Shown: piece by piece, positions 1-64,000 of the stretch
How the letters are laid out: the number at the start of each line of letters is the position of its first letter
How positions within the stretch are numbered: the stretch's first letter is position 1
Origin: a virus
Length of the DNA: 64,000 bases
Strand: one strand, 5' to 3'
Virus record (IMG/VR): IMGVR_UViG_3300029858_000001
Span: 91,123 to 155,122 of that record
Translations under genes and position numbers: made by a program
Notes under the pieces: model-generated
Seen by the model: the letters and a program-made list of their open reading frames with translations, nothing else
What the model was told of the DNA's origin: nothing
Databases searched by the model: none

Positions 1-944
1 TATATGAAGCTAAACCAAGACCCAATGGCACCTTTTACTTAAAAAAGAGATGGCCTATTCCGTACAAAGTAATCATTGTAGATGAAATATCAATGTTGCC
101 TAAAACAATGTGGGATTTACTTCTTTCACATCATAAATATGTAATTGCTTGCGGCGATCCATTTTAGCTTCCACCAGTAGATCCAAATGAAAATAATCAT
201 GTTTTGGATAAGCCACATATTTTTTTAGATGAAATCATGCGACAGGCCCAAGATAGTGAAATTATTAGATTATCTATGTGGGTACGAGAAGGCAAGCCTC
301 TGGGGCAATTTCCAGTTGCTAAAGAATAGGTTTAGATTTTAAGACCCTACGAATTAATTCCAGAAATGTACGATTGGGCAGATCAAACTTTATGTGCCTC
401 TAACAAAAGACGTATTGAAATTAATAATAAAGTTCGAGAGCGGCAAGGACGAGGAGCTACCCCAGAAATAGGAGATAAAATTATAGGATTAACTAATCAT
501 TGGGATTTTACATCTACTGATGGTTTATGGCCTTTAACTAATGGATGTATTGGAACTATTACTAATTATCAAATTGTTCCATACAATTATCCAAGTTTTA
601 TTTATAATAAACAACTTCAATATATGTTTACAGGAATGGATATACCTAATGGAAGATTTGAATCTATACCTATTGATTATGATGCTTTAATTACAGGTAC
701 TCCAGCCTTTGATAATAAACAAGCATTTAGAATGAATAGTTTTGCCAGAAATTCTGATGCATTAGAAGCTCCTTATTATTTTGCTTATGCTTATGCAATA
801 ACTGTTTGGAAAGCTCAAGGTAGTGAATGGGATAAAGTTTTATTGATTGAAGAAGCCCATCCTTTTGATACATTAGAACATTAGAAATATTTATATACTG
901 GTATTACAAGAGCCAGTGAAAAATTAGTAGTTATAAGGAAATAA
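1..944 (+). CDS. SF1 helicase, Pif1/Dda/RecD-like, 5' partial. In-frame TAG codons at 165, 327, 333 and 882 are read through; TAA stop at 942-944.
   Basis: Frame 3 reads IIVDEISMLP...ACGDPF(TAG)LPPVD, which is the helicase motif III GDxxQLPPV with TAG at the conserved Gln. The C-terminus has YTGITRA (motif VI). The track ORF 366..884 is an internal fragment. Confidence 0.8.
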
Positions 945-947
945 TAT

Positions 948-1547
948 ATGGATGTATTAAGCATAGATTTTGATATTATTATGGCCCCAAGTATTAATTT
1001 ATATAATAATATGGTTCCTGGGACTAATTGGGATGATTTATTAAAAAGTTTACCTAATCTTACAACAACTCCTGCTGATTTACATATTTATTCATCTATT
1101 TTAAGATACTTGTTAAAAGTAATTGATTAGGAATCTTCTATATATATTGCTTATGGGCATGATAAGATAAAAGAGTATTTACAATATGATAATGATTTAA
1201 ATATTACAAATATTGATCATCATCATGATATCTTTTATGATATTAAAGATAAGGATAAAAAATTGGAAGAATGTACTTGTGCTGATTGGGTTAAGTATTT
1301 TTATGATTAGGATAAATTAAAAGATTATACTTGGGTTCACAATGATAATTCTTGTGACCCTAACTTTGAAGTAAATTTTAAATATAATAAAATACCATTT
1401 AAGGAATTTAAATTTGCTAATTCTTATAATAAATATTTTATTTGTCTATCTCCAGAATGGGTTCCACCTTATTATCATAGTTTATTTTATACTCTTTTAG
1501 ATTGTTTAAATGAAAAAAATAATTATCATTTGGAGATTGTAGGATAA
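948..1547 (+). CDS. Hypothetical protein with two in-frame TAG codons (1128, 1308)
   Basis: ATG 948. The reading frame stays open through two TAG codons to TAA at 1545-1547. Composition is coding-like. Confidence 0.5.
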
Positions 1548-1738
1548 TGGAAATACAAAATTTACTTAATTAGTTAGGTCATGAGCTAGATAAACAACAA
1601 CAACAAAATCAAAACCAAATTAGTTATTTACGCAATGAAAATCAAAAATTGAAAAATAATTTATCAATTTATAAACAAAATTTAATTGAATTAGCCAGCT
1701 TTATAAATAAAATAGCTAATAACATAGATGATTTTTAA
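1547..1738 (+). CDS. Small Q/N-rich coiled-coil protein with one in-frame TAG
   Basis: ATG 1547 overlaps the upstream TAA. Sequence reads MEIQNLLN(TAG)LGHELDKQQQQNQNQ...; TAA at 1736-1738. Confidence 0.4.
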
Positions 1739-1807
1739 AATTGATTTTGATGAAATTTTATGATATAATATTTATAGAAAATAATAATAAATTAAGGAGG
1801 TAGGGAA

Positions 1808-4800
1808 TTGAATACTTATTTTGGTTGCCATAATCATACAATGTATTCGAACCTCCGTTTACTAGATTGTATAAATAAACCAGAAACTTTAATTGATAAA
1901 GCTATTGAATTAGGACTTTCGGGAATTGCTATCACAGATCACGAAAGTCTTTCTGCCCATATGACAGTAAATCAGTACGCTAAAAAAATCAAAGAAAAAT
2001 ATCCAAATTTTAAAATAGCATTAGGCAATGAAATTTATTTAACTAATGATAGAAGCACAGGACAAAAGTATTACCATTTTATTTTAATTGCTAAAGATGC
2101 TATAGGATATCGAGCATTAAAAGAATTAAGTTCAATTGCTTGGCAAAATTTATATGTTGATAGAAAAATGGAACGTGTTCCACTTTTAAAGAATGAATTA
2201 AAATCAGTAGTAGAGAAGTATAAGGGACATTTAATTGCTACTACTGCATGTATTGGTGGAGAATTAGGCACTTGTCTTTTAAAGGCTGTAGAATATAAAG
2301 AACAAGAGAATAATTACGAATTATATCAAATTTTAAAACAAATAGATACTTTTCTTACTTTCTGTCAAAATTTATTTGGTGAAGACTTCTATTTAGAGAT
2401 TGCTCCATCGACTGCGGCAGATCAAAAACTTGTAAACCATATGATTTATAAAATTGGTCGTAGTTATGGAATTAAGGTAGAAGTTGCCACCGATAGTCAT
2501 TATTTAACGAAAGAAGATAGACCAATTCATAAGGCTTATCTTAATTCAAAAGATGGAGAACGAGAAGTTGACAAGTTTTATGAATTTGCTCATTTAATGA
2601 CTTATGATGAAGTTTTTGATTTAATTACCCCTTGTTTTATATATTTAGATATTGAAGAGCAGCCAGAAAAAATAGCTAAAGAAATTTTAAATAATACTCT
2701 TGAAATTCAAAATAAAATTGAAGATTTTTCTCTTGAGAGAAAACAAATAATTCCAAAAGTAGAAGTATTAGATTATAAAAAAGGTTTTATTCCTTTAGAC
2801 TGGATTAATAAATATCCTATTATTTGTTCTTTAATTAATAGTGATAATATTCAAGAACGATATTGGATAAACGAATGTATTAAAGCCTTACAAGAAAAAA
2901 AACTTTATTATAGTGAAAATTATTTAGCTCGTCTTGAAATTGAAGCTGACATTATAAGAGATATTGGCGAAAAATTAGATGATTGCCTTTTTGCTTATTT
3001 CAATACTTTTAAACATTATATTGACTTGTTTTGGGATTGTGGTTCTATCGTAGGTCCTGGACGTGGTTCGGCCACAGGTTTCTTATCTAACTATTTATTG
3101 GGAATAACCCAATTGGATCCAATTCGATGGGGCCTACCATATTGGAGATTTTTAAATAAAGAGAGAGCCGAATTACCTGATATTGATATTGATTTGGCTC
3201 CTTCAAAACGTCCAGCGATTTTTGAAGCTATTCGCAAAGAACGTGGAGAGTTAGGTTTAATTCAGGTCGCTACATTTGGTACTGAAACTACTAAATCTGC
3301 TATCCTTACGGCTTGTAGAGGTTATAGGTCTGATAAATATCCAAATGGTATTGATGTAGATGAAGCTCAATATATGTCCTCTCTTATTCCACAAGAACGT
3401 GGATTTTTATGGGAAATTAATGATGTTATTTATGGTAATGAAGAAAAAGATAGAAAACCGGTTAAAACATTTATTAATAAAGTAAATGAATATCCAGGGC
3501 TTCTTGATATAATTATTTACATTGGTGGTATCGTTAATAAACGTTCTTCCCATGCTTCTGGTGTTATTCTTTATGGTGATGATCCATATGATACAGCAGC
3601 ATTTATGAGAACACCAAGTGGTAGTTTAATCACTTGTTGGGACTTACATCAGACCGAGGCAGCAGGTGATACGAAATATGATTTCCTTGTTACTGAAGCT
3701 TCTGATAAAATTATTACTTGTTATGAATTATTATTAAAGGCAAAAGAAATTCCTAACTTATCTTTGAGAGATTTCTATAATCAATATATTCATCCAGAAG
3801 TAATAGATACAACTGATCAAAAAATTTGGGATCATCTTGCAGCTGGAGATGTATTAGACTGTTTCCAGTTTTCTACTGGTGTAGGATTAGCTATTGCTAA
3901 AAAATTAAAACCACAAGACCCTATGGAAATGACTGCGGCTAATGCTATGATGCGTCTTATGTCTGAAAAAGGTAAAGAATCACAGCAAGATAGATTTTAT
4001 CGTATTCAACATCAAGGCATTCAAGCATTTGATAAAGAAATGAAACAACATCATTTGCCGCAAGAGCTTATTGATAAATTTCATAAGCATTGTGATAAAT
4101 ATTATGGTTGTTGTCCTTTGCAAGAGCAAATGATGGAAATCCTTATGGACATAGCCCATTTTACATTAGGTGAAGCCAATTCTGCCCGTAAAGTTGTCGC
4201 TAAAAAACAAATGGCTAAAATTCCTCAATTAAAAGAACAAGTATTTAGTCGTTTTGATAATAAAAATGATGCAGAATATTTTTGGGAAACAGCAGTAGCA
4301 CCGCAATTAGGATATGCATTTTCATTAAATCATAGTTTACCTTATAGTTTTGTAGCCATTCAAATGATTTATTTCGTTATTCATTATAATCCTATCTATT
4401 GGAATTGTGCTTGTTTGATTGTTAATAGTGGTTCTTTGGAAGATAATAGTGAAGAAGAGATCGTAGATATTTATGACCCTGAAGCAGATGATTTGGCTAA
4501 TGGAGTTACTTTTGAAGATTTGCCTGATAAAAAATCTAAAGTAAGAAAAACTAATTCTACTGACTATGGAAAGATTGCTAAAGCTATTGGAGACATTCGT
4601 AAAGCTGGTATTCAAGTAAGTCTTGCTGATATTAATAAATCAGAATTTAGTTTTATTCCTGATATTGAGAATAACCAGATTCTATTTGGCTTAAAAGGTA
4701 TGCTAAATGTTGGTGATGATGTAGTTAAAACTATTATTGAAAATAGACCTTATAAATCCCCCAGAGATTTTTTAAATAAGGTTAATCCTAATAAACAAGC

Positions 4801-5788
4801 AATGATTTCACTTATTAAAGGTGGAGCATTTGATCATATGATGGATAGAAAACTTTGTATGGTCTGGTATATTTGGGAAACTTGCGATAAAAAGAAAAAT
4901 CTTAATCTTCAAAATTTAGCTACTTTAATGAAATTCAATCTTCTTCCTGCGGACACTCTTGAACGGCAGCAAGCTTTACACATTTATGAATTTACTCGTT
5001 ATTTAAAACAAATTTGTAAATATGATAAAGTTTATTATAAATTGGATGATAGAGCTATTGATTTTTTACAAAAAATTGATAAAGATAGTTTAATTCAAAA
5101 TAAAGATTCTAATTTTTATTTAAATATTAAAGATTGGAATGATAAAGTTTATCAAGGCTGGATGGATATTTATCGTAAACAAATTGCTGATAATAAAGAA
5201 GAAATTTTAAATAAATTAAATGAAATTATATTTAAAGACGATTGGAAAAAATATTGTCCTAAAGTAAATTATTCAGCTTGGGAAATGGAAGTATTATGCT
5301 TCTATTATCATGAACATGAATTGGCTCAAGTAAATCAAAGCAAATATGGATTTGCTGATTTTTATAGTTTACCTGAAGATCCAGTAGTAGAAAGAAGTTT
5401 TGTTAAAGCTGGAAAAACAATAAATATTTATTATTTATCTAAATTATGCGGCACTTGTATTGCTAAGAATAAAAATAAAAGTATTGTAACAATTCTTACT
5501 CCAACAGGAGTAGTAAATGTAAAATTTAGAAAAGAATATTTTACATTATTCGATAAACAAATTTCTCAAAAACAACCTGATGGAACTAAAAAAATTATTG
5601 AAAAATCTTGGTTTAATCGCGGTAATATGATTGTGGTTCAGGGCATTCGTTCAGGTGATGATTTCATTGCTAAAAAATATGCCTCAACTGCGGGTCATCA
5701 ACTTTATCATATTGATACTATTCAATCAAATGGGGATTTAATTTTAAGAAGTGAACGATATCAAGGAGTAGCAGAAGATGAAGAATAA
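1808..5788 (+). CDS. dnaE: DNA polymerase III alpha subunit, DnaE-type, with N-terminal PHP domain. No TAG in 1326 codons.
   Basis: PHP motifs HNHTMYS and ITDHES. Polymerase core GPGRGSATGFLSNYLLGIT. TTG start 7 nt after AAGGAGG; TAA is in frame just upstream. Confidence 0.9.
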   Translation: MNTYFGCHNHTMYSNLRLLDCINKPETLIDKAIELGLSGIAITDHESLSAHMTVNQYAKKIKEKYPNFKIALGNEIYLTNDRSTGQKYYHFILIAKDAIGYRALKELSSIAWQNLYVDRKMERVPLLKNELKSVVEKYKGHLIATTACIGGELGTCLLKAVEYKEQENNYELYQILKQIDTFLTFCQNLFGEDFYLEIAPSTAADQKLVNHMIYKIGRSYGIKVEVATDSHYLTKEDRPIHKAYLNSKDGEREVDKFYEFAHLMTYDEVFDLITPCFIYLDIEEQPEKIAKEILNNTLEIQNKIEDFSLERKQIIPKVEVLDYKKGFIPLDWINKYPIICSLINSDNIQERYWINECIKALQEKKLYYSENYLARLEIEADIIRDIGEKLDDCLFAYFNTFKHYIDLFWDCGSIVGPGRGSATGFLSNYLLGITQLDPIRWGLPYWRFLNKERAELPDIDIDLAPSKRPAIFEAIRKERGELGLIQVATFGTETTKSAILTACRGYRSDKYPNGIDVDEAQYMSSLIPQERGFLWEINDVIYGNEEKDRKPVKTFINKVNEYPGLLDIIIYIGGIVNKRSSHASGVILYGDDPYDTAAFMRTPSGSLITCWDLHQTEAAGDTKYDFLVTEASDKIITCYELLLKAKEIPNLSLRDFYNQYIHPEVIDTTDQKIWDHLAAGDVLDCFQFSTGVGLAIAKKLKPQDPMEMTAANAMMRLMSEKGKESQQDRFYRIQHQGIQAFDKEMKQHHLPQELIDKFHKHCDKYYGCCPLQEQMMEILMDIAHFTLGEANSARKVVAKKQMAKIPQLKEQVFSRFDNKNDAEYFWETAVAPQLGYAFSLNHSLPYSFVAIQMIYFVIHYNPIYWNCACLIVNSGSLEDNSEEEIVDIYDPEADDLANGVTFEDLPDKKSKVRKTNSTDYGKIAKAIGDIRKAGIQVSLADINKSEFSFIPDIENNQILFGLKGMLNVGDDVVKTIIENRPYKSPRDFLNKVNPNKQAMISLIKGGAFDHMMDRKLCMVWYIWETCDKKKNLNLQNLATLMKFNLLPADTLERQQALHIYEFTRYLKQICKYDKVYYKLDDRAIDFLQKIDKDSLIQNKDSNFYLNIKDWNDKVYQGWMDIYRKQIADNKEEILNKLNEIIFKDDWKKYCPKVNYSAWEMEVLCFYYHEHELAQVNQSKYGFADFYSLPEDPVVERSFVKAGKTINIYYLSKLCGTCIAKNKNKSIVTILTPTGVVNVKFRKEYFTLFDKQISQKQPDGTKKIIEKSWFNRGNMIVVQGIRSGDDFIAKKYASTAGHQLYHIDTIQSNGDLILRSERYQGVAEDEE

Positions 5789-6699: not shown

Positions 6700-7986
6700 A
6701 TGTATATAATTAAACGTGATGGTACAGTTGTATTATTTGATAAAAATAAAATAATTAATGCTATTAACAAAGCATTTATAGAAGTCGATGGATAGTTATA
6801 TGAAAATGATACAGCTACTGATATTGCTAATGATATTGAATCTTGGATAAATAAATGTCCAGATGGTAGTATTGAAGTAGAAGATATCCAAGATATAATT
6901 GAAGATTATCTAATGCAGTCAGAACGACGTGACGTTGCTCGGGCCTATATTAGATATAGATATAAAAAAGAAGTAGCTCGATAGAAAAAAGATGATTTTA
7001 TTCAAGCTATTAGAAAAAAATTAGATGGTAAAGATATTAAAAATCAAAATGCTAATGTAGATGAAGCATCATTCGGTGGCCGTATTGGTGAAGCCAGTAG
7101 TGTGGTAACTAAACAGTTAGCTTTAGATTATATTGTATCTCCCATGACTCGTAAAAATCATTTAGAAAATATAATTTATACTCATGATCTTGATGCTTAT
7201 TATGTTGGTTCTCATAATTGTTTAAGTATTCCTTTTGATGATTTACTTGCTAATGGATTTAATACACGCCAAACAGATGTACGTCCAGCAGGTTCAGTGA
7301 ATACAGCTTTTCAATTAGTGGCTGTTATTTTCCAAATTCAAAGTCTTTCTCAATTTGGTGGCGTTAGTGCGACCCATCTTGATTGGACTATGGTTCCTTA
7401 TGTCCGTAAATCTTTTTATAAGCATTATCGTGATGGTATGAAATACTTATGCAATTGTAATTGGAATTTAGATAACTATTTAGAAGATAGTGATACCTAT
7501 AAAAAAATCATAGATATTCCGATTAATGATTATTCAGCTTATCTAAATGAAGCAGATGATGCTGGAGATTTTGATAAAGTATATCAATACGCTAGGGATA
7601 TGACTTTAAGAGAAGTCCATCAAGCAGTAGAAGGTATGTATCATAACCTTAATACTTTACAATCTCGTTCAGGTAATTAGTTACCATTTACTTCTATTAA
7701 TTATGGTACTTGCACTCTTCCAGAAGGAAGAATGATTATTAAAGCTCTTTTGGATGTATCTATCGAAGGTATTGGTAAATTACATAAAACATCTATTTTC
7801 CCTTGCGGAATTTTTCAGTGCATGAAAGGTGTTAATCGTGAAGAAGGAGACCCAAATTACGATTTATTTAAACTCGCATTACGTTCAACCGCCACAAGAT
7901 TGTACCCAAATTATGCTAATGTCGATTGGTCTGGAAACGCAGGGTATGACATTAATGATCCTCGTACCTACTTTTCTACAATGGGT
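6700..7986 (+). CDS. nrdD: Anaerobic ribonucleotide reductase NrdD, exon 1 (ATP-cone plus catalytic N-terminal part). In-frame TAGs at 6793, 6979 and 7678.
   Basis: ATP-cone N-terminus MYIIKRDGTVVLFDKNKIINAINKAF. The frame ends at ...FSTMG; the conserved MGCR continues only when joined to exon 2. The last exon nucleotide is T, as expected for a group I 5' splice site. Confidence 0.8.
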
Positions 7987-16778: not shown

Positions 16779-16780
16779 TA

Positions 16781-53184: not shown

Positions 53185-53227
53185 TCTTATTATTCTTTTA
53201 AAAATTAATTTAAAAGAATAATAAGAG
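53185..53227. other. Perfect 19-bp AT-rich inverted repeat immediately downstream of terL
   Basis: ctcttattattcttttaaa / tttaaaagaataataagag with a 5-nt loop. Confidence 0.5.
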
Positions 53228-53236
53228 TTGCCCGGC

Positions 53237-54988: not shown

Positions 54989-56202
54989 TAATCTTCTCTA
55001 TCAGAGAAAGCATCTATATCTAACTCTGTTTCATTATCTAAAAATTCACTAAAGTCTTCAATGTCTTTATCTTCTAAAGTTTTTTCAATGTCTTCAATAG
55101 ACATATCAACATCATCAACAATTGTATCTTCGACGTTTTCTTTAGCCTATTCATCTTCTTTAGCGTTTTGTTTTAATGCCTAATCAATCATATTGCCAAG
55201 ATTAGTTTCTCGTTCAATTAAAGTGCGTGTATATTTTTGCATATCTTTAATTGTAAAATCTACTTTATCATTCGGAGTATCAATATAATATCTTTCGATA
55301 TAACCTTGTTTCTCACACATTTCTATTAATTCACCAACAGAATCAATAAAATCACCAGACTCTTCTTTATTCTGAGCCGCAGTAAATTTGCCCGATTTCA
55401 TTAAAGAATCATACATTTTAATCATCTTTTGGGCGCCGTCCACATCACCTATATCTAATAACTAATTAGATTTTAATGATGTCTTACAGGCAAGTTTTAA
55501 TGTATCAATATGGCCTGCGGACTAAATATCGTAAGACTACATCATTTCATTAAATAATTGCTCTAAACGCACCCATTCATCAGGACTATAACCTTTTCCC
55601 CATTTTAAATAAAGATACCGTTTATCTTCGTCTGTCAGTTCTGCGCCTAAATCAGGAACCTCAAAATCTAATTTATCTTTAAAATAATCTTCTGTAGAAT
55701 TCCCAAAATCTAGGGGAGGAGGCGCTGGAGGAGGCGGCTCTTTTAATTCTTCTGATGGCAAAGCAAATGAAGCACGTTGAATGGCTGTAGTGATATCTTG
55801 AATGTCATACCCCTATTGCTTCATTGTTTCTTCTATTTTTTTATTTTGTAAGTCTTGCAAGAATTGACTATCTTTCCATCTGTAATCTTTCCATTGATTT
55901 AATTTCATTGCAGAGAGATAGCGACCTAATATTGTCATTCCAGTGACTTTTGTTCTATCCTTCGCAAATTTACCCATTAACTAATTCCACTATTCAGGAA
56001 TGTAAGGAACATCACATTCTTGCAATATCCATAGATAAGTATCCGGATTCCAATTATCTACATGCATTGTTATACATTTTTTACATTTTGGTAATTTACC
56101 ATCATTAGGATATTTATCTAAATTATTAGATGTATAAAACTAAGTTCCATCCATAGTTTTATTACATTTTTCACAGTAATATTGTTTACCTTCGCTGGAC
56201 AA
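54988..56202 (-). CDS. Zn-ribbon protein with a Pro-rich linker and acidic C-terminus; terminase small subunit candidate by position
   Basis: TTG 56202 after AAAGGAG. CEKC...CKKC at the N-terminus. Track ORFs 55537..55761 and 55180..55443 are in frame. TAA overlaps the terL ATG. Confidence 0.4.
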
Positions 56203-56220: not shown

Positions 56221-57285
56221 TTAGGATTTCATTTTTTCTTTACGAGAACTATTTCGGCATTTTTTGCATATACTATAAAATCCATCTTTACTTGTTTTAT
56301 TATAGGAAAAATATTTATTGTGAGCCAATTTAATTTGCCCACATCTACTGCATTTTTTATACTTACCTTTTTCTTGAGTCGTATAATACCATTCTAAATA
56401 TTTATCAACGGCTTTATCAGCAATAAGTTTTGGTATTTTATTGCGGAATAAACTTGATATATATTCTAAGCTGTGAGTAATATTAAATTCTTCTTGTAAA
56501 ATTTTTTGAATCTCTATATTTTGTAATCCATCAATTTTACATTCTACAATGCGCATTAACATAGGATAGTCAGCTAAGGCTTCATCGCAAATATTTTCAA
56601 AATCATAAATAAGATACCAAGTATCATCTTCAAAACGATCCCAACTGTCTTCTTTTAATCGAGAATAGTTACATAAGACACAAGAGCAAATTTCAGGATT
56701 CATTAATGAAATTCCTTCGGGAATTGGATATCCATCATCATCGAACATTTTTACATCTTCATCTAATTTAATTTTATATTTAGATCGTGTAAGTTTTACT
56801 GGTACTATTGGTTTTCGATAAGCATTTTTAATAACATATTGATCTTTGCGCATTTCTATTAATGCCTTTTTTATAGTGAAAGCATCTTTACCACTTACTA
56901 CTTTCATTTTTGCTTCCCAAGTTGTAATAGCGTCTTTTAATTGTTTTAAGCTAGGAATTTCTTCTAAATCTTTTTTTGTAATTGTAACTTTTGGCTAAAA
57001 TATCATATTCTTATCACTATTAATTAAATTATATATACCATCTTCACCATTCTCTAACTGGGAAACAAGTCCTTCGAAAGAAGTTTCACGTTTATTAACT
57101 GTCATTAATCTATTATCAGTTAATATTTTCTTTTCTTTTTTTTCTTGTTTCTCCATACATAGAATTAGATAATCTGCGAGGATTTCTAAATACTTTTCAT
57201 TAGGATTTGGATTTTCCTCTAAAATTTTTTTTACTAATTCATTTCGTTCTTCAGGAGTTTCAAGAGTATAATCTAATTTTATCAA
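56221..57285 (-). CDS. First late-operon protein (~354 aa) with a C-terminal CxxC...CxxC zinc ribbon; possible DNA-binding or regulatory protein
   Basis: TTG 57285 after AGGATTGGAGG. Track ORFs 56995..57342 and 56221..56907 are in frame, joined through TAG 56995. The ATG at 57342 lies inside the -35 box. Confidence 0.45.
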
Positions 57286-57454: not shown

Positions 57455-57610
57455 ATGAGAAAACCTCGTGGTATTTTAGGTAGTATGGCTTCTAAAGCTA
57501 AGCGTAGAGCAACTAATAGCGCAACTAGAGCTGTTTATCAACTTATGTGGGGTGAAAATCCTAAACAGCAAGGAGCTTATAATCCTGTTAAGGAACGTAA
57601 GAAAAAGTAA
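57455..57610 (+). CDS. Small basic protein (51 aa)
   Basis: AAAGGAG RBS. Sequence MRKPRGILGSMASKAKRRATNS... Confidence 0.4.
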   Translation: MRKPRGILGSMASKAKRRATNSATRAVYQLMWGENPKQQGAYNPVKERKKK

Positions 57611-57645
57611 ATATATTATATTTAAAAATTGAGGGAAGTGATTTA

Positions 57646-58083
57646 ATGAAGTTTGTCCATGGGCTTCTTTTAGGTACTGGGGCGGCGTTTGGTTTAGGAT
57701 GTGCGGCCAGATTTATTTACGGTAAAATTATTGAAGCAAAAATTTATAAAGATTATACTAAAGCGCTTGAAGATTTTATGAATTTCAAAAGCGATAAAAA
57801 ATATATTGAATATAATAAAGGGCTAGAAGAAAAATATATTGGGCCTGGAATAGTTCATGTCATTAAAAATAAAAAAGATTTAATGGCTATTGACTTATCT
57901 AAATATGAAGAAGAGGGAGATCCAATCGGCATTACTCTTGGTTCTAAAATTGTAGATAAAGAAGATCAATATATTATACCTGAAGTAGAAGTTTATAAAT
58001 TTAAAAATGGATATACAAATTATCGGTTCCATCAAGAACGAGGAGTAATTGACCCTAATGAAGGTATTATTCCTTTTGATTAA
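57646..58083 (+). CDS. Membrane-anchored hypothetical protein
   Basis: N-terminal TM. GAGGGAAG RBS. Confidence 0.5.
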   Translation: MKFVHGLLLGTGAAFGLGCAARFIYGKIIEAKIYKDYTKALEDFMNFKSDKKYIEYNKGLEEKYIGPGIVHVIKNKKDLMAIDLSKYEEEGDPIGITLGSKIVDKEDQYIIPEVEVYKFKNGYTNYRFHQERGVIDPNEGIIPFD

Positions 58084-58112
58084 TTTATGTTAAGATCTTG
58101 TTAAGAAAAATT

Positions 58113-58141
58113 TTGACAAAAAACAAAAAATTTTGTAAAAT
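58113..58141 (+). promoter_or_regulatory. Promoter-like element (TTGACA, 17 nt, TAAAAT)
   Basis: ttgaca aaaaacaaaaaattttg taaaat. Confidence 0.45.
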
Positions 58142-58202
58142 AAGTTATAAAATTTGTGGGATGGTTCACACTCTCCCAATTAAAAAGAAAGGAGTGAGTT
58201 TA

Positions 58203-58403
58203 ATGCTGAAAACAGCTTATACAAGAAAACTCGATACAGTTGGACGTTTAATGATTCCTTCTAAACTTCGTGAAGAATTGCATATGGTAAATGGTCATAA
58301 TTATGAATTTTATATTGACGAAGTAGATGGTAAGACTTTTTTATGTATTGAATGTCCTGAAGCCAGTGACGCCGTAGCTCTTGCAAAAGAAACGTTGGAA
58401 TAG
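58203..58403 (+). CDS. AbrB/SpoVT/MazE-family swapped-hairpin DNA-binding protein
   Basis: KLDTVGRLMIPSKLREEL matches the AbrB-N GRvviP..iR motif. RBS AAAGGAG. ATG 58203. Confidence 0.6.
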   Translation: MLKTAYTRKLDTVGRLMIPSKLREELHMVNGHNYEFYIDEVDGKTFLCIECPEASDAVALAKETLE

Positions 58404-58439
58404 AATGGGTATCGAGTAATTAAAGAATAATTAGATTAA

Positions 58440-58475
58440 AGCGGGAAAATATTTTCCCGCTTATTTTTTTTTATA
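58440..58475 (+). terminator. Rho-independent terminator
   Basis: aagcgggaaaatattttcccgctt followed by T10. Confidence 0.8.
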
Positions 58476-58595
58476 AAAATCGTTTTTTAAAATTGAAATA
58501 ATTATCGTTTTCTGAAATTAAAATTATTATCGTTTTTTGAAATTGAAAATGAGTTTAGAAATTATTATCGTTATCTGAAATTGGAATTGAGTTTA
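58469..58595. repeat. Four iteron-like direct repeats (core tatcgtttt[ct]tgaaatt), spaced 25, 25 and 38 bp
   Basis: Units start at 58469, 58494, 58519 and 58557. The last two carry an extra gagtttagaaattatt module. Confidence 0.6.
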
Positions 58596-58654
58596 GAAAT
58601 TATTTTGCCAGGCAGGAAGATTTATCCATTTTTTCCATTTTTTTTACACGAAAC

Positions 58655-58725
58655 CCTGCCCCCCACTTCACTTGACTAAAGTGTTAAAGTCTATTGTCTT
58701 ACTTTACTTGAGTGAAGTGAGTTAG
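58655..58725. repeat. Long imperfect palindrome (cacttcacttgactaaag ... ctttacttgagtgaagtg)
   Basis: 14 of 18 positions match between the arms. Flanked by C-runs. Confidence 0.4.
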
Positions 58726-58774
58726 ATACGACTAACCCCCGAAAAAAATATTTCGTTTTTTTTGAAAAAAGTTC

Positions 58775-58802
58775 TTGACTTTTTGGAAATAGCCGCTATA
58801 AT
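58775..58802 (+). promoter_or_regulatory. Near-consensus promoter P1 (TTGACT, 16 nt, TATAAT)
   Basis: aaaaagttcttgact ttttggaaatagccgc tataat. Confidence 0.6.
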
Positions 58803-58885
58803 GATAATCAGAAATCAACCACAAGGCAATGCAAAACAAGCCGCAAGGCAAGCGAAAAAAATTCAAGAAATTTTGAAAAAAGTTC

Positions 58886-58914
58886 TTGACAAACAGAGCG
58901 CCATGTGGTACAAT
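58886..58914 (+). promoter_or_regulatory. Consensus promoter P2 (TTGACA, 17 nt, TACAAT), a tandem duplicate of the P1 upstream context
   Basis: The shared upstream motif ttgaaaaaagttcttgac occurs at both P1 and P2. Confidence 0.6.
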
Positions 58915-58921
58915 TCAAAAT

Positions 58922-59173
58922 GTCAAGAGGACAGAGACAGACCACAGCAAGTTCTCTTGTGTGACGTAAAATGACCGGCAGACGCGGACAGCACCGAACC
59001 GCTTGCACCTTGTAAAGTGAATTTAAGCCAAACGCCTGCACCGCACAGCGGGCGCAATGGTAGAACATGGAAAGTGCGGTGCAAGCTGTAGGGCAGTCCA
59101 ACGCCTACGGCAGACAGCATCACGGACAGGTGACACCTAACAGTCAAATAATATGTAAAGGATTGGTAAAATC
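58922..59173 (+). ncRNA. GC-rich, highly structured ~250-nt leader (or small RNA) between P2 and the first ORF, with mutually exclusive helices
   Basis: gcttgcacc (58996) and tgcaccgcac (59037) can each pair with the overlapping gtgcggtgcaagc (59074-86). GC here is ~55 % against ~30 % elsewhere. Confidence 0.3.
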
Positions 59174-59578
59174 ATGGTTATAAACATATTCACAAGTAAG
59201 GAAGATAAGGAAAAAGCTATCAAGACAGAGCTTGCTGAGCAGGCACAGGACTTGGTAGGATATGTCAAGCAGTACCATATGTTGGGGGACGAGTTCGACT
59301 ATGAACGCACCCTTGAGACATATCATTGTTATGCGGCAAGTAACATTGACGCATGGGATAGCTTAACATGGGCTATTGATAGCGCAGAATATGACCTTGA
59401 GCATACGCCATATAATATGGATATGGAAACCGGCTGTCCATGTGCTGAATATGATGCAATTTACCAGAAGCTGGCAGATATGCGCGAAGAAGCCGAGGAA
59501 TGGGCAAACACCTTTGAGCATATGTTCGAGGACTTCTTTAATAAGCTGTATGACCTGTTATATGGTGAAGAAGCATAA
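59174..59578 (+). CDS. Acidic hypothetical early protein
   Basis: Intact ORF with RBS. TAA stop. Confidence 0.5.
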   Translation: MVINIFTSKEDKEKAIKTELAEQAQDLVGYVKQYHMLGDEFDYERTLETYHCYAASNIDAWDSLTWAIDSAEYDLEHTPYNMDMETGCPCAEYDAIYQKLADMREEAEEWANTFEHMFEDFFNKLYDLLYGEEA

Positions 59579-59631
59579 GCTTCTTCACCCATTCACCTAA
59601 CAACACTTTGACATTATATGGAGGTAAAACT

Positions 59632-59967
59632 ATGAACCGTATCAATAGAAGAGCCATTCGCAAGGAAGCGCTGATGAACACCATCGAGCGCGTTAATACT
59701 GCCATCAGCAAGGTTAACTTCTCTGACCCTAATGGCAAGGACACCTTCCACAAGCTGTTGGACAAGAAGGACTATATTGCTCAGCAGATCGCCGAAGCCA
59801 GCTACACCGAGTATTCGATGAAAGCTAACTATAATGAGGTCAAACGCATTCTCTCTCATATGGATGAAGGCGGCTGTGCTGAGTGGGTCAAGTGGGACAT
59901 TAAGCAGCTGGCAGCAAGTCGGCGTCGCTGGGCTATCGCCACAAGCAAGCAGATTTGGTTGGGCTAA
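59632..59967 (+). CDS. Hypothetical early protein
   Basis: ATG 59632 after GGAGGT. Confidence 0.5.
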   Translation: MNRINRRAIRKEALMNTIERVNTAISKVNFSDPNGKDTFHKLLDKKDYIAQQIAEASYTEYSMKANYNEVKRILSHMDEGGCAEWVKWDIKQLAASRRRWAIATSKQIWLG

Positions 59968-60000
59968 TTGCCCAACCAACCACAGAAAGGGGACAACATT

Positions 60001-60189
60001 ATGTACGCTATCTATAATCACACCACAGGCAAGTATGGCATTATCTACCGCAGTCTGACCGTAGCACGGTCTATGGCTCACGCTTACAGCATATGGGCAA
60101 AGAATGACAGAGATGTCATTGATATGCAGACTGGCGAAGTAATGAGTCAGTTTAGCAAAGGACACGAAACTTATAGGGCTATGGCTTAA
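60001..60189 (+). CDS. Hypothetical early protein (62 aa)
   Basis: ATG 60001 after AGAAAGGGGA. Confidence 0.45.
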   Translation: MYAIYNHTTGKYGIIYRSLTVARSMAHAYSIWAKNDRDVIDMQTGEVMSQFSKGHETYRAMA

Positions 60190-60224
60190 TTGCCATAGCC
60201 TACCAATAGAAAGGAGATAACATT

Positions 60225-60530
60225 ATGTTCTCTACAAAAATCGCATTCGTTAATTCGACTGGCAGCACCTATGACTGCGCCGAGTTCTTTACAAAATGCC
60301 CTTGGTGCGATAGCACCGAAGAAGCCACCAAGAGAAAGAAAGAATGGCTGGGGCGGCTTGAGGAAGTGCTGTACATTATGCAAGAGCTGGAACCTTGTGA
60401 CAGCCGCAACTGGGCACATAACTTGTGGGACAAAGAATCTGTGGAATTCAATTTCCATAATCTGACAAAACATCTGGTCATTCTGATCAAAGGTCCATTC
60501 AGTTTTCAGGTAATGGTGAGGGACATTTAA
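60225..60530 (+). CDS. Hypothetical Cys-containing early protein
   Basis: AAAGGAG RBS. CPWCD motif. Confidence 0.5.
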   Translation: MFSTKIAFVNSTGSTYDCAEFFTKCPWCDSTEEATKRKKEWLGRLEEVLYIMQELEPCDSRNWAHNLWDKESVEFNFHNLTKHLVILIKGPFSFQVMVRDI

Positions 60531-60598
60531 GTCCCTCTACCGCTTACCAACCGCACAATCGAGCGCATGAATTGAATTTTCGGAAAGGAATTTTTGAA

Positions 60599-60751
60599 AT
60601 GAAAAATTTCAAACTCGCTATTTACCTTACCTCAGTCATAGTCTTACTCTGGATTAGCATTTCATTTTGCAATGTAGTTGCGCATAATAATCCGGCTGAT
60701 GGGGCTTATGAATATCCCTCTTGGAACTTTTTCGTGATGATGGAGGATTGA
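60599..60751 (+). CDS. Possible 50-aa single-TM peptide
   Basis: RBS GGAAAGGAA. Hydrophobic core LAIYLTSVIVLLWISISF. Confidence 0.3.
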   Translation: MKNFKLAIYLTSVIVLLWISISFCNVVAHNNPADGAYEYPSWNFFVMMED

Positions 60752-60752
60752 A

Positions 60753-60998
60753 ATGAAAAATCAACATAGATGGTCAGGCGAATGGACACAGAGGGGAGCG
60801 CTTGGAGCGCATGACCTCTTTACTCTCAATGGCGAATGGGATGATATTCTCTATATCCCAGTTGGCGCAGAGGGCTGGGCGGATGGGGCTAATGCTTTCA
60901 ACCTCTCAACTCAGGAATTTGAAATCATTCCTCAACATTGGGAAGTCTTTAAGGTAGACCTTGATAGGTCTAGGGCAAATTGGAGTGAAGAGGGTTAA
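60753..60998 (+). CDS. Trp/acidic-rich hypothetical early protein
   Basis: Intact ORF with GGAGGA RBS. Confidence 0.5.
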   Translation: MKNQHRWSGEWTQRGALGAHDLFTLNGEWDDILYIPVGAEGWADGANAFNLSTQEFEIIPQHWEVFKVDLDRSRANWSEEG

Positions 60999-61013
60999 GA
61001 CCCTCTTCACTTA

Positions 61014-61205
61014 ATGAAAGGAATAATTGAAATGGAAATGGTCAGAACCTTGCTCGATGGCTGGCTGCCCGTGAAGCCATTCTCTTATGTATATGGCATT
61101 TATTGGGATTATCTCTACACTGATTCCTATAAAGGAATTGAATTCAATGTCTATAAACATATAACTAACGAAATGTGTGTTGTTCTCACAAGTGAAATAA
61201 TTTGA
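61014..61205 (+). CDS. Hypothetical small protein
   Basis: ORF only. Weak RBS. Confidence 0.3.
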   Translation: MKGIIEMEMVRTLLDGWLPVKPFSYVYGIYWDYLYTDSYKGIEFNVYKHITNEMCVVLTSEII

Positions 61206-61219
61206 AAGGAAAAACGAAA

Positions 61220-61531
61220 ATGATAAACATTCGCACAATCAAGAAACTGACTGATGGCGATGGTCTGACCCTTAAGAATGGAAAAATCAAGAGGTACAAG
61301 AGTGGCTATCAGGTAGCTACTAATGGCGTCGAAGTCATCAGTCCTGAAATGGCAATACAGGCGGTTCGAGAGTTCAAAGGCACTTGCGGCATTTGGCTTG
61401 AAAATGGCAGATACTACATTGACATTTCTAAACGAGTCAGCACCAAACGCGAAGCAGTTGAAATTGGCAAGAAATGTAATCAGCTTTCAATTTACAGATG
61501 GCGCGGCAATCCTGCCTGCCTTTATATTTAA
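61220..61531 (+). CDS. Small early protein, paralog A of a tandem pair
   Basis: MINIRTIKKLTDGDGLTLKNGKIKRYKSGYQV. Confidence 0.5.
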   Translation: MINIRTIKKLTDGDGLTLKNGKIKRYKSGYQVATNGVEVISPEMAIQAVREFKGTCGIWLENGRYYIDISKRVSTKREAVEIGKKCNQLSIYRWRGNPACLYI

Positions 61532-61554
61532 GATTTGAAAAGGAGAAATAAAAA

Positions 61555-61872
61555 ATGATTAACGTTAGAACTATCAAGAAAATGCTGGACGGCGATACCC
61601 TGAATATCAAGAACGGGAAAATCAAGAAGTACAAGGGCGGTTTTCAGGTGAATGTGCAGACCTATGAACATGACAGTCCTGAATCTGCTATCTTCTGGGC
61701 GAAACTGCTTAACACTCTGGATGGCGGTTGCAGTATTCAATTCAAAAATGGAAAATATTACGTCAGCACCACGAAGCACGCCTATACCAGACGACAGGCA
61801 AGGGAAATGGCAAATGATGCAGGTCAGGGCGCTATTTATGAATGGCAGAATCTGGCTCATATGGCAGTTTGA
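61555..61872 (+). CDS. Small early protein, paralog B
   Basis: MINVRTIKKMLDGDTLNIKNGKIKKYKGGFQV. It is followed by a hairpin plus T-run at 61880-61915. Confidence 0.5.
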   Translation: MINVRTIKKMLDGDTLNIKNGKIKKYKGGFQVNVQTYEHDSPESAIFWAKLLNTLDGGCSIQFKNGKYYVSTTKHAYTRRQAREMANDAGQGAIYEWQNLAHMAV

Positions 61873-61879
61873 TCCTGAA

Positions 61880-61915
61880 ATTCCAAGGGCTGGAAATTGG
61901 AAACAGTTTCCAGCC
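61880..61915 (+). terminator. Rho-independent terminator
   Basis: gggctggaaattggaaacagtttccagccc followed by attttt. Confidence 0.6.
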
Positions 61916-62185
61916 CATTTTTCAAATCCTCTTCTTTAATTCATTATCACTTTAATCAAATGAATTGCCTCGCCGGGGCGTGGCGAAATTGATATATCCA
62001 CAGCAAGCTCGCCACGCCCCGCATTTTCCATTTAATACCAATTCCGAATATTTCCAGCCAAATTCTACCATATCTGGTATTACATTCCATTTCCCATATC
62101 CTACCAGCTTATGGTATATAATTCCATACCAAATATTTCCAGAATCTTTGTGCATATTGACGAATAAAAAAATTTAACTTTCCTA

Positions 62186-63359: not shown

Positions 63360-63365
63360 TAAAAA

Positions 63366-63578
63366 ATGGAAGGATATAAGACCTGGAAATATCTGGTAAT
63401 TAACTTCCTCCCTACAAAAGACTGGCCGCGATTGTTTTTTGTAGAAGCTTCGTGTCGTTCGGAAGCTGAACATTATATTCAAAAACACTGTGGAAAAGAC
63501 TATATGCTGGTGGATAAATACGATGAATTTGTCGCAAAAATTCTTGATTATCCCGAAATTCCGCATGATAAATTCTAA
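63366..63578 (+). CDS. Hypothetical protein
   Basis: Intact ORF. Confidence 0.45.
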   Translation: MEGYKTWKYLVINFLPTKDWPRLFFVEASCRSEAEHYIQKHCGKDYMLVDKYDEFVAKILDYPEIPHDKF

Positions 63579-63589
63579 TTTCCATTTGA

Positions 63590-63632
63590 ATTTCCTCCCA
63601 AGATATGGGAGGAAATTCTATTTTGAAATTTT
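63590..63632 (+). terminator. Rho-independent terminator
   Basis: gaatttcctcccaagatatgggaggaaattc followed by tattttgaaatttt. Confidence 0.6.
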
Positions 63633-63675
63633 GTATAAAATATGATATAATAAAATAAAAAAAGGATTGATATTT

Positions 63676-64000
63676 AATGAATAAAAATGAATTGGCTAAA
63701 TATTGCAATACTACTATCGGATAGGTAGAAAGAAATTTTCCAAAACTTAAAAATAAATTTCTAAAATAGGGTATTCTTATTACGAAAGAGGGACAAGGAG
63801 AACAAGCCGTTTATACAATATCAGAAACTATTCCTATAAATATTCCATTTGTTCCTAAATATACGAAAGAAAAAAAATGGGATAAAGATTTAGAAAATGA
63901 ATAGTGGATTGACATTTATGGAATAGATGGATTTGAAATTTCTAATTATGGTAGAGTAAGAAATAAAAATACATTACAATTACATAAATCTTCTACTCAT
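63676..64000 (+). CDS. NUMOD4/HNH-type homing endonuclease, 3' partial; AT-rich with four or more in-frame TAG codons
   Basis: W-x-D-I-x-G-x-x-G-F-E-I-S-N-x-G-R-V-R-N is the NUMOD4 motif that precedes HNH. ATG 63676 after AAAGGA. TAGs at 63724, 63775, 63895 and 63916. Confidence 0.55.

What the first reader, a model, noticed from the sequence alone, without database searches (positions are those of the whole stretch)
1..64000. Genome-wide reassignment of TAG (amber) to a sense codon, most likely Gln; TAA and TGA still terminate
Every recognisable late gene is one continuous frame only if TAG is read through, and all TAG-bounded fragments of each gene share one frame. The motif-level cases are these:
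(a) The helicase motif GDxxQLPPV has TAG exactly at the invariant Gln (165-167).
(b) The GIY-YIG core reads YIG-TAG-S.
(c) The poly-Q tracts of the 16187-16618 protein alternate TAG with CAA.
(d) The NrdD glycyl-radical tail, the TerL ATPase and the HNH enzyme all read sensibly through TAG.
Genes terminate with TAA or TGA, and many show ATGA start/stop overlaps. This is the amber-recoded phage code already described for crAss-like and Lak-type phages. I cannot identify the host, but strong AGGAGG RBSs and ~30 % GC point to a Firmicutes-type host, which would make this an unusual siphovirus-like example. No suppressor tRNA-CUA or release-factor gene was seen in this window.
Basis: partly seen in the sequence, partly recalled or inferred. 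Interest (0 to 1): 0.9.

Follow-up and report, generated by a model that had tools for sequence, protein, structure and literature searches.

The report
Amber-recoded (TAG=Gln) SPbeta-like gut phage
This window is about one third of a ~187-kb gut phage that reads the stop codon TAG as glutamine, a real and very clear case of a phenomenon already described, including for relatives of this phage.

Summary
Treating TAG as sense raises ORF coverage (ORFs of 100 aa or more) from 49% to 95%. It also joins fragments into full-length helicase, NrdD, TerL, portal and a 3,107-aa tape-measure gene carrying 107 in-frame TAGs.

TAG means glutamine:
- All four strongly conserved TAG columns are Gln in 37-69 diverged relatives each.
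- Gln beats the next residue (Lys) by 17.8 ln-likelihood units.
- Between close strains, TAG exchanges mainly with CAA/CAG (20 of 24 changes).
- TAA and TGA terminators are conserved in all 40 genes checked and are never replaced by TAG.

The phage is an SPbeta/EF1-like siphovirus and a distant relative of phAss-1 (MCP 49% identical), whose TAG-to-Gln code was published in 2023. It is common in public metagenomes, where gene callers already apply code 15.

TAG use is graded. It makes up about 5% of Gln codons in early genes, about 20% in replication genes and about 45% in late genes. It is absent from DNA pol III alpha and nearly absent from the major capsid and tail-tube genes.

No tRNA lies in the window. 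The phage's first tRNA cluster, about 45-50 kb away, has no canonical tRNA-CUA. A related phage carries one in a second cluster. That region of this phage could not be reached, so the suppressor is inferred and not shown.

The parts
3..944 (+). RecD-like SF1 helicase, cut by the window start, 4 in-frame TAGs
   Evidence: Pfam UvrD_C_2, Viral_helicase1 and AAA_30. PDB RecD2 3E1S.
165..167 (+). TAG codon at the invariant Gln of helicase motif III (GDxxQLPPV)
   Evidence: Sequence read directly. Gln in 71 and TAG in 8 of 79 relatives. Q in 3E1S and 9KWF.
1808..5788 (+). DNA polymerase III alpha, 1,326 aa, no TAG among 56 Gln codons; AAGGAGG RBS and TTG start read directly, and an upstream -35/-10-like pair (TTGATG ... 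TATAAT) judged by eye, not scanned
   Evidence: Pfam PHP, DNA_pol3_alpha, finger and HHH_6. 0 of 56, binomial p = 4e-12. Upstream sequence.
6700..8019 (+). NrdD (anaerobic ribonucleotide reductase) N-terminal part, 3 TAGs; the TAG at codon 327 is Gln in relatives
   Evidence: Pfam ATP-cone and NRDD positions 2-265. Column Q 48, TAG 4.
8142..8702 (+). GIY-YIG homing endonuclease between the two nrdD parts; TAG at 8193-8195 in YIG-TAG-S
   Evidence: Sequence. Relatives Q 7, K 6, TAG 4. No Rfam intron hit.
8909..9835 (+). NrdD C-terminal part with the glycyl-radical motif RVTGY, 3 TAGs, TGA terminator
   Evidence: Pfam NRDD 282-562 and Gly_radical. Columns 97 and 273 mostly Gln. PDB 8P23 and 1H78 end within 2-5 residues of this TGA.
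10850..11338 (+). NrdG activase, TAG-free
   Evidence: phrog_626. Codon counts.
14065..56202 (-). Late (virion) gene block g20-g48: 301 TAG against 365 CAA+CAG (45% of Gln codons)
   Evidence: Gene calls. Counts summed. SPbeta-type Pfam families on record for the same genes in near-identical contigs.
16187..16618 (-). Small Q-rich protein, 11 TAGs interleaved with CAA
   Evidence: Codon listing.
27601..30813 (-). 1,070-aa tail-fibre-like protein, 21 TAGs
   Evidence: Same length as the tail fibre of phAss-1 relatives (PMC10607447). tblastn to phAss-1.
30859..40182 (-). Tape-measure protein, 3,107 aa, 107 in-frame TAGs, no TAA or TGA over 9.3 kb, TGA terminator
   Evidence: Aligns end to end with the tape-measure genes of EF1 and phAss-1.
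42471..43556 (-). Tail tube protein (YomU_Tube type), only 1 TAG
   Evidence: phrog_2729. Pfam YomU_Tube on record. Counts.
47556..48692 (-). Major capsid protein (YonB type), no TAG, prefers CAG
   Evidence: phrog_4088. tblastn to annotated major capsid proteins. Pfam YonB. 0 of 11.
51089..52774 (-). Portal protein, 10 TAGs
   Evidence: phrog_2739. Three TAGs are CAA/CAG in sister strains.
53237..54988 (-). Large terminase, 583 aa, 11 TAGs
   Evidence: phrog_2, plus two fragment families. More than 100 full-length database entries 96-98% identical, already translated with Q at TAG.
56221..57285 (-). Sigma-factor-like protein with an HNH-like zinc tail; first gene of the leftward block, 1 TAG
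   Evidence: phrog_5767 and phrog_2255.
57468..62000 (+). Start of the rightward early block of small genes (some on the minus strand), almost TAG-free; it continues for tens of kb beyond the window
   Evidence: Flanking loci.

Best explanation
**What it is.** The window is part of a ~187-kb SPbeta/EF1-like siphophage from gut metagenomes that uses genetic code 15. UAG is translated as glutamine, and UAA and UGA still terminate.

**Shown**
- TAG is an in-frame sense codon in 49 of 66 genes.
- It sits at Gln positions of homologues.
- It is interchangeable with CAA/CAG between strains.
- It never replaces a terminator.
- Its use rises from early genes to late genes.

**Inferred**
- During infection a phage-encoded tRNA with anticodon CUA, charged with Gln, out-competes host release factor 1. 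A canonical one exists in a related phage.
- Early genes and some replication genes (Pol III alpha here; GyrA, GyrB and ligase just outside the window) carry no TAG, so they can be made in the naive host.
- TAG-rich tail, packaging and lysis genes can only be completed once suppression is on. This gives a translational timer, as proposed by Borges et al.
- The most abundant virion proteins (capsid, decoration protein, tail tube) avoid TAG and prefer CAG. This suggests that suppression is slower or leakier than ordinary decoding.
For: **Coding density.** 49% rises to 95%, and the longest ORF from 1,331 to 3,142 codons. There are 66 genes at 95% density.

**Amino-acid identity**
- Against the standard-code Enterococcus phage EF1, 129 TAG sites align most often to Q (24, or 19%). 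The background Q frequency is 4.3% and true CAA/CAG sites match Q 20% of the time, with the same K/E/T neighbours.
- In 80 IMG/VR relatives, helicase codon 55 is Gln in 71 and TAG in 8. NrdD codons 327, 97 and 273 are Gln in 48, 39 and 40 relatives.
- Likelihood from majority residues: Q -35.8, K -53.6.
- RecD2 and 9KWF structures have Q at the motif III site.
- Gln content goes from 2.9% to 4.6% when TAG counts as Gln.

**Synonymy between strains**
- At 89 TAG sites covered by relatives at least 85% identical, 20 of 24 alternative codons are CAA/CAG.
- Reciprocally, 22 of 29 sites where a close relative has TAG are CAA/CAG in the window.

**Terminators.** TAA or TGA is conserved at all 40 gene ends checked, and TAG never appears there. 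The TGA and TAA ends of NrdD, TerL and the tape measure coincide with the ends of their homologues.

**Gradient of use**
- Pol III alpha 0 of 56 (p = 4e-12); tape measure 107 of 215.
- GyrA, GyrB and ligase have 0 TAG and the early block has a share of 0.02-0.15.

**Suppressor in a relative.** A related TAG-recoded phage has a canonical tRNA-CUA: loop CTCTAAA, unpaired 1-72, G73, encoded CCA (Rfam tRNA 48.9 bits).

**Published precedent.** phAss-1 has TAG = Gln and three tRNA-Sup-CTA genes (PMC10607447). Metaproteomic proof of code 15 exists for crAss-like phages (PMC9523058, abstract).
Against: - No tRNA-CUA was found in this phage. There is none in the window.
- There is none in the 143 kb (76%) of the matching 188-kb IMG/VR contig that I could read (c32,584-175,270), including its first tRNA cluster.
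- The suppressor is therefore extrapolated from a relative only 76-96% identical in the shared DNA.
- No release factor or aminoacyl-tRNA synthetase gene was seen among the window proteins scanned. Not every ORF was scanned.
- There is no protein-level evidence.
- The timer model is not clean. Helicase, NrdD and the RecJ-like gene carry TAGs while the capsid and tube genes do not.
Confidence: 0.93

Rival explanations
1. TAG is sense but encodes another amino acid (Lys, Glu, Tyr, Ser, Leu or pyrrolysine).
For: - At variable sites TAG also aligns with K, T, S and E.
- NrdD codon 97 is Tyr in 10 relatives and F/Y in solved structures.
- ARAGORN labels CUA tRNAs 'Pyl' by default.
Against: - The substitution profile equals that of true Gln codons.
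- All four conserved columns are Gln.
- Gln is favoured by 17.8 lnL over Lys and more over the other residues.
- Strain-level swaps are with CAA/CAG.
- No pyl genes were seen.
Confidence: 0.02
2. The host itself reads TAG as Gln, so the phage simply mirrors its host and there is no switch during infection.
For: - The host is unknown.
- No suppressor has been found in this phage so far.
- Contigs of this phage were binned into low-GC 'Mollicutes' MAGs.
Against: - TAG is nearly absent from tens of kb of early genes and from Pol III alpha, GyrA, GyrB and ligase. A code switch explains that pattern; a uniform code does not.
- A related phage carries its own tRNA-CUA.
- Close relatives with cultured hosts use the standard code (PMC10607447).
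- To my knowledge no bacterium with TAG = Gln is known.
- The MAG labels contradict each other, which points to binning noise.
Confidence: 0.03
3. TAG remains mainly a stop. The genes are pseudogenes, or are expressed by rare read-through, or the TAGs are sequencing or assembly artefacts.
For: Standard-code callers fragment these genes. PHROGs even holds separate families for the two TerL halves.
Against: - Only TAG interrupts the frames, and always in frame. The tape measure has 107 TAGs and no TAA or TGA in 3,107 codons.
- The same TAGs recur in more than 100 independent assemblies.
- Amino-acid sequence is conserved across TAGs.
- Rare read-through of 107 stops would yield essentially no full-length product.
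Confidence: 0.01

Closest known systems
Phage phAss-1 / proposed Phassvirus and its wider group (Babkin et al. 2023, PMC10607447; GenBank OQ749652, 'Caudoviricetes code 15 clade')
   Same: - TAG = Gln in TerL, portal, tape measure and tail fibre.
- Human-gut origin.
- Tape measure of about 3,100-3,200 aa and a 1,070-aa tail fibre in relatives.
- Pol III alpha, NrdD and NrdG present.
- 25 window proteins align to phAss-1.
- The paper already notes divergent relatives with TAG suppression, some without a detectable suppressor tRNA.
   Different: - Only 49% MCP and 40% TerL identity.
- Genome of about 187 kb against 136 kb.
- Different gene order.
- phAss-1 has two tRNA-CUA genes next to nrdD, and this phage has none there.
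- nrdD is split by a GIY-YIG gene here.
[quoted passage not shown] 2022, PMC9523058)
   Same: - TAG = Gln.
- Recoding is concentrated in structural and lysis genes and variable in replication genes.
- Early genes are compatible with the standard code.
- Clades mix codes 11, 15 and 4.
- Suppressor tRNAs are detectable in only about 40% of TAG-recoded genomes.
   Different: - This is a different lineage from crAss and Lak, which infect Bacteroidetes.
- I could not test whether this phage falls in the large Firmicutes-associated clades (Agate, Jade or Sapphire).
SPbeta-like and Enterococcus phage EF1-like siphoviruses (standard code)
   Same: - Structural module with YonG/YonD/YonB/YomW/YomV/YomU-type proteins.
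- 27 window proteins align to EF1, in syntenic order through the virion module.
- nrdD is also split by a homing endonuclease in EF1.
   Different: These relatives use the standard code. EF1 genes are not interrupted by TAG.
Amber suppressor tRNA-Gln (supE type) and phage tRNA-Sup(CUA)
   Same: The relative's tRNA (L232 16803-16880) has anticodon CUA, U35, G73 and an unpaired 1-72. From general knowledge these are GlnRS identity features in E. coli.
   Different: - It was not found in this phage.
- Its charging has not been tested.
- Many Firmicutes lack GlnRS and make Gln-tRNA through GluRS and GatCAB.

Membership tests
Code-15 (TAG to Gln) recoded bacteriophage | In-frame TAGs break conserved genes, and treating TAG as sense restores full-length genes and normal coding density | tested here: met
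   Coverage rises from 49% to 95%. TerL, portal, tape measure, NrdD and helicase are restored.
Code-15 (TAG to Gln) recoded bacteriophage | TAG positions align with glutamine in homologues | tested here: met
   Gln is best by 17.8 lnL, and 4 of 4 conserved columns are Gln.
Code-15 (TAG to Gln) recoded bacteriophage | TAA and TGA remain terminators | tested here: met
   No gain from TGA-as-sense. Stops are conserved as TAA or TGA at 40 of 40 gene ends. Gene ends match homologue ends.
Code-15 (TAG to Gln) recoded bacteriophage | Phage-encoded suppressor tRNA with anticodon CUA | tested here: inconclusive
   None in the window or in 76% of the matching contig. Present in a related phage.
Code-15 (TAG to Gln) recoded bacteriophage | A subset of genes (early genes) free of TAG, so expressible in a standard-code host | tested here: met
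   Pol III alpha has 0 of 56, and genes at 57.6-62 kb are almost TAG-free. The early block beyond the window has a TAG share of 0.02-0.15.
Code-15 (TAG to Gln) recoded bacteriophage | Gln at TAG shown at the protein level | not testable with these tools
   Needs metaproteomics, as was done for crAss-like phages (PMC9523058).
Code-15 (TAG to Gln) recoded bacteriophage | Accessory code-change genes (RF2, aaRS); optional, seen in a minority of such phages | tested here: not met
   No such Pfam or PHROG hit among the 37 window proteins scanned. Smaller ORFs and the rest of the genome were not scanned.
phAss-1-related / SPbeta-EF1-like siphovirus group | Shared virion module (MCP, portal, TerL, tube, giant tape measure) and Pol III alpha / NrdD replication genes | tested here: met
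   tblastn to phAss-1 (25 proteins) and EF1 (27 proteins). Pfam Yon/Yom families.
Proposed genus Phassvirus | About 80% or more nucleotide identity and the same synteny as phAss-1 | tested here: not met
   No megablast hit in the phage collection for window 40000-60000. MCP is 49% identical. Gene order differs.

The most novel reading that the evidence does not exclude
In this lineage UAG decoding may not depend only on a canonical tRNA-CUA. The phage's first tRNA cluster (outside the window) contains several non-canonical tRNA genes:
- A type-I tRNA with U1-A72, G73 and a 6-nt anticodon loop. Its central bases differ between related TAG-recoded phages (GTTAAT here, ATCTAA and ATTCAA in relatives).
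- An Ala-type (G3-U70) tRNA whose short anticodon arm can expose UUA.
- tRNAs interrupted in the anticodon loop by inserts of about 64-73 nt that end in CCA.

One of these, or a modification of a host tRNA, could be the real decoder or the switch. The avoidance of TAG in the most abundant virion proteins would then reflect a costly, partial suppression system.
Probability: 0.08. Interest if true: 0.65.

Novelty: new member of a known kind. Interest (0 to 1): 0.3.

Why it matters
- **Annotation.** Standard-code annotation of this abundant gut phage is wrong for about three quarters of its genes. PHROGs already contains fragment 'families' that come from such errors, and several MAGs contain its contigs under contradictory bacterial names.
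- **Biology.** It adds a large SPbeta-like, probably Firmicutes-infecting lineage with many sequenced relatives using codes 11, 15 and possibly 4. That makes it good material for asking how recoding arises and what it costs.
- **Testable pattern.** The graded TAG use, with avoidance in Pol III alpha, gyrase, ligase, capsid and tube genes, is a clean pattern for the 'code switch as lysis timer' idea.
- **Limit.** It does not change what is known about genetic codes.

Tried and rejected
- **TGA or TAA as sense.** TGA gives no gain. TAA only fuses everything in an AT-rich genome without lengthening the longest ORF.
- **Near-identical published phage.** None found by megablast.
- **Exact-protein look-up of Pol III alpha.** Not on record, with either L or M as first residue.
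- **Host from GTDB genomes.** Eight hits in MAGs labelled Mollicutes, Acutalibacteraceae, Bacteroidales, Treponema, Clostridium and Muribaculaceae, on phage-sized contigs. I rejected these as binning noise.
- **Walking the 188-kb IMG/VR contig.** This used all 8 viral scans. I reached the first tRNA cluster but found no CUA.
- **The one metagenome scan.** It found only a 58% relative with no tRNA.
- **Look-up of P0246.** The contig ended 2 kb short of the expected suppressor site.
- **The odd 6-nt-loop tRNA as universal suppressor.** Rejected, because its loop differs among three TAG-recoded phages.
- **An 11-mer of the relative's suppressor.** It matches L194 1824-1834, but inside an ORF, and about two chance hits are expected.
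- **Group I intron between the nrdD halves.** No Rfam hit even at E of 1 or less.
- **Anchor error.** The anchor for the right flank was off by about 12 kb because a 15-mer recurs. The 'RIGHT' table there starts about 12 kb past the window end, and I did not rerun it.

Full report

Yes. The window is 30.6% GC.
- With the three standard stops, ORFs of 100 aa or more cover 49% of it. Removing TAG from the stop set raises this to 95%.
- For ORFs of 200 aa or more, coverage goes from 16% to 77%. The longest ORF grows from 1,331 to 3,142 codons.
- Removing TGA does nothing comparable (56%, same longest ORF).
- My own gene calls with TAA/TGA stops give 66 genes at 95% coding density. They contain 355 in-frame TAGs in 49 genes.
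- The extreme case is the tape-measure gene (30859-40182, minus strand). It has 3,107 codons, 107 TAGs and no TAA or TGA.

All the motif-level claims check out:
- 165-167 is TAG in GDPF-TAG-LPPVD.
- The GIY-YIG gene reads YIG-TAG-S, and gene 16187-16618 alternates TAG with CAA.
- Terminators are TAA (49) and TGA (17). There are five ATGA overlaps, and 51 of 66 genes have an AGGA-type RBS.

**2. What does TAG encode?**

*Standard-code outgroup.* I masked TAG as X and aligned all window proteins to Enterococcus phage EF1.
- 129 TAG sites aligned. The commonest partner was Q (24, or 19%), against a background Q frequency of 4.3%.
- Genuine CAA/CAG sites match Q at 20%, with the same K/E/T neighbours.

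*Diverged relatives.* Eighty IMG/VR relatives around the helicase gave deep columns.
- Helicase codon 55 is Gln in 71 and TAG in 8 of 79.
- NrdD codon 327 is Q in 48 and TAG in 4.
- NrdD C-terminal part, codon 97, is Q 39, Y 10, TAG 6. Codon 273 is Q 40, TAG 4.
- Using the majority residue per column, Gln has lnL -35.8 and the runner-up Lys -53.6. All four strongly conserved columns are Gln.

*Solved structures.* RecD2 (3E1S) and 9KWF have Q opposite the helicase TAG. In distant NrdD structures the TAG sites fall on variable residues, so they say nothing about identity.

*Close strains (85% identity or more).*
- Of 24 alternative codons seen at 89 TAG sites, 20 are CAA or CAG.
- Of 29 sites where a relative has TAG and the window does not, 22 are CAA/CAG. 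Many of these need two base changes, which is the signature of synonymous drift.

*Composition and terminators.*
- Counting TAG as Gln brings Gln content from 2.9% to 4.6%.
- TAA and TGA terminators are conserved at all 40 gene ends that could be compared, and TAG never appears there.
- The ends of NrdD, TerL and the tape measure coincide with homologue ends.

**3. What is the genome?**

- Pfam and PHROGs identify the following:
  - replication and nucleotide metabolism: helicase, DNA pol III alpha, a split NrdD, NrdG, a nucleotide kinase and dUTPase;
  - virion and packaging: portal, TerL and a virion structural protein;
  - regulation: a sigma-like factor.
- The capsid protein is 59% identical to an unannotated faecal fragment, 49% to phage phAss-1 and 40% to Enterococcus phage EF1. 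It is about 25% identical to SPbeta-like and Bacillus phages.
- TerL has more than 100 full-length database entries at 96-98% identity (100% apart from the masked sites). They come from contigs of 185-196 kb and are already translated with Q at TAG.
- The same genes carry the SPbeta-derived Pfam families YonG_N, YonD_N, YonB, YomW, YomV_2nd and YomU_Tube.
- IMG/VR contig IMGVR_UViG_3300045988_152007 (188,474 bp) is the same phage.
- The window is therefore about a third of a common ~187-kb SPbeta/EF1-like siphophage.
- GTDB hits are phage-sized contigs in MAGs with mutually incompatible names, so the host stays unknown. A Firmicutes-type host is likely by kinship.

**4. How TAG is distributed**

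Overall, TAG makes up 38% of Gln codons, but unevenly.

| Gene set | TAG | CAA+CAG | TAG share |
|---|---|---|---|
| Late block 14-56 kb | 301 | 365 | 0.45 |
| Plus-strand replication block 0-14 kb | 32 | 157 | 0.17 |
| Small genes at 57.5-62 kb | few | - | almost none |

- Pol III alpha contributes 0 of 56 Gln codons (p = 4e-12).
- Outside the window:
  - GyrB, GyrA, ligase and RNase H have no TAG;
  - a RecJ-like gene has 14 TAGs, the holin 5 and the CHAP endolysin 2;
  - the early block to the right has a TAG share of 0.02-0.15, apart from homing-endonuclease genes.
- Against the simple 'late genes are recoded' rule, the capsid (0 of 11), the neighbouring head gene g43 (1 of 15) and the tail tube (1 of 15) avoid TAG and prefer CAG.
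- I read this as selection against a less efficient codon in the most highly expressed genes. That is an inference.

**5. Mechanism and the search for the suppressor**

- There is no tRNA in the window. ARAGORN was validated on phAss-1, where it found 26 tRNAs including 3 with anticodon CUA.
- I walked the matching contig with protein-anchored fetches. It has no tRNA from c42,584 to c175,270.
- A tRNA cluster begins about 45-50 kb beyond the right end of the window. It holds Phe, Leu, Lys, Glu, Asp, Met and others, but no canonical CUA.
- Using homing-endonuclease and tail-fibre-like proteins as stepping stones, I reached a related TAG-recoded phage (76-96% DNA identity in the shared parts). 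About 15 kb further on it has a second tRNA cluster with a canonical tRNA-CUA: loop CTCTAAA, unpaired 1-72, G73, encoded CCA.
- A phage-encoded Gln-type amber suppressor is therefore the most likely decoder, but it is inferred.
- Borges et al. report detectable suppressors in only 40% of TAG-recoded genomes, so an apparent absence would not be unusual.

**6. Comparison with what is known**

- TAG = Gln in gut phages is established:
  - the Borges et al. survey;
  - metaproteomic validation (PMC9523058);
  - theta ribozymes next to suppressor tRNAs (PMC10879173).
- For this very group, Babkin et al. 2023 described phAss-1 and noted divergent relatives with TAG suppression.
- The window's phage is not a Phassvirus: there is no nucleotide match, MCP identity is 49% and the synteny differs. 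It does belong to the same broad SPbeta/EF1-like assemblage.
- It is a new member of a known kind.

**7. Verdict**

The finding is ordinary by today's knowledge, so I give it an interest of 0.3. The residual interest lies in three things: the graded TAG use, the avoidance of TAG in the most abundant virion proteins, and the unusual tRNA genes outside the window.

Noticed in passing
window 6700-9835: nrdD is split into two ORFs (Pfam NRDD positions 2-265 and 282-562), with a GIY-YIG homing endonuclease (8142-8702) between them. This looks like an intron with a homing gene, as annotated in Enterococcus phage EF1. Rfam finds no group I intron there, even at E of 1 or less.
   Followed up: partly
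window 42471-43556, 46890-49486 and 1808-5788: The tail tube, major capsid and two neighbouring head genes, and Pol III alpha, almost or entirely lack TAG. The head and tube genes also use CAG more than CAA, unlike the rest of the window. This suggests translational selection against TAG.
   Followed up: partly
window 62458-63156 (also 60152-60481 and 62080-64000): Some of my ORF calls at the right end are probably not genes. At 62458-63156, sister strains have TAA or TGA where the window has TAG. Gene content at 62-64 kb is uncertain.
   Followed up: partly
L056, L057, L066, L072, L075, L088 (IMG/VR relatives of the helicase region): In these relatives ORF coverage rises with TGA as sense (e.g. 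0.83 to 0.93) and not with TAG. Others (L060, L061, L071, L089) look standard. The family therefore seems to mix codes 11, 15 and 4.
   Followed up: no
L220 15736-15810 (same phage, about 45 kb right of the window); L227 3987-4057; L228 5817-5887: A cloverleaf tRNA gene with U1-A72, G73, encoded CCA and a 6-nt anticodon loop. The central bases of the loop differ between related TAG-recoded phages (GTTAAT, ATCTAA, ATTCAA). ARAGORN calls them 'Stop|Leu', 'Arg|Pyl' and unassigned.
   Followed up: partly
L220 15902-16046; L232 15029-15166; L228 5982-6121: Rfam finds tRNAs (42-50 bits) interrupted in the anticodon loop by inserts of about 64-73 nt. The inserts end in CCA and contain a T-arm-like GTTCAAA hairpin. 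By my hand parsing, removing the insert leaves loops CUUAUAA (UAU) in L220 and L228 and CUUUGAC (Gln UUG) in L232. ARAGORN missed them.
   Followed up: partly
L220 19619-19737: A tRNA-like gene with an Ala-type acceptor (G3-U70, A73) and a 15-nt anticodon arm (TTGAA TTTAA TTCAA) that could expose UUA. It is followed by a weak match to permuted tmRNA (E = 0.0085).
   Followed up: no
L223 19635-19720; L228 11267-11354: A tRNA with a long variable arm (type II body) but anticodon CCA (Trp), at the end of the first tRNA cluster.
   Followed up: no
L232 15356-15943: A full-length ROOL RNA (Rfam RF03087, 328 bits) lies inside the second tRNA cluster of the related phage, about 0.9 kb upstream of its tRNA-CUA.
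   Followed up: no
window 53237-54988 (TerL): PHROGs has separate 'unknown function' families matching TerL residues 11-226 (phrog_15503) and 354-573 (phrog_24618). These are probably fragments created by standard-code annotation of recoded relatives.
   Followed up: no
L106-L113 (GTDB genome contigs): Phage-sized contigs of this lineage sit in MAGs named Mollicutes, Acutalibacteraceae, Bacteroidales, Treponema, Clostridium and Muribaculaceae. This is likely contamination of those bins.
   Followed up: no
L194 8169-9943 (about 20 kb left of the window start): The lysis genes lie in the rightward replication-side block, far from the virion module. They are a CHAP-type endolysin with 2 TAGs and a holin-like gene with 5 TAGs.
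   Followed up: no
L227 and L228 11900-20651: After the first tRNA cluster, relatives encode several Mtd_N-domain and tail-fibre-like proteins, plus an LRR protein, all with TAGs. This may be a second receptor-binding module.
   Followed up: no
window 63638 and the contig about 12 kb beyond the window end: A 15-mer from window position 63638 recurs about 12 kb further along the related contig. This threw off my anchor. It may be a repeated regulatory element or chance.
   Followed up: no
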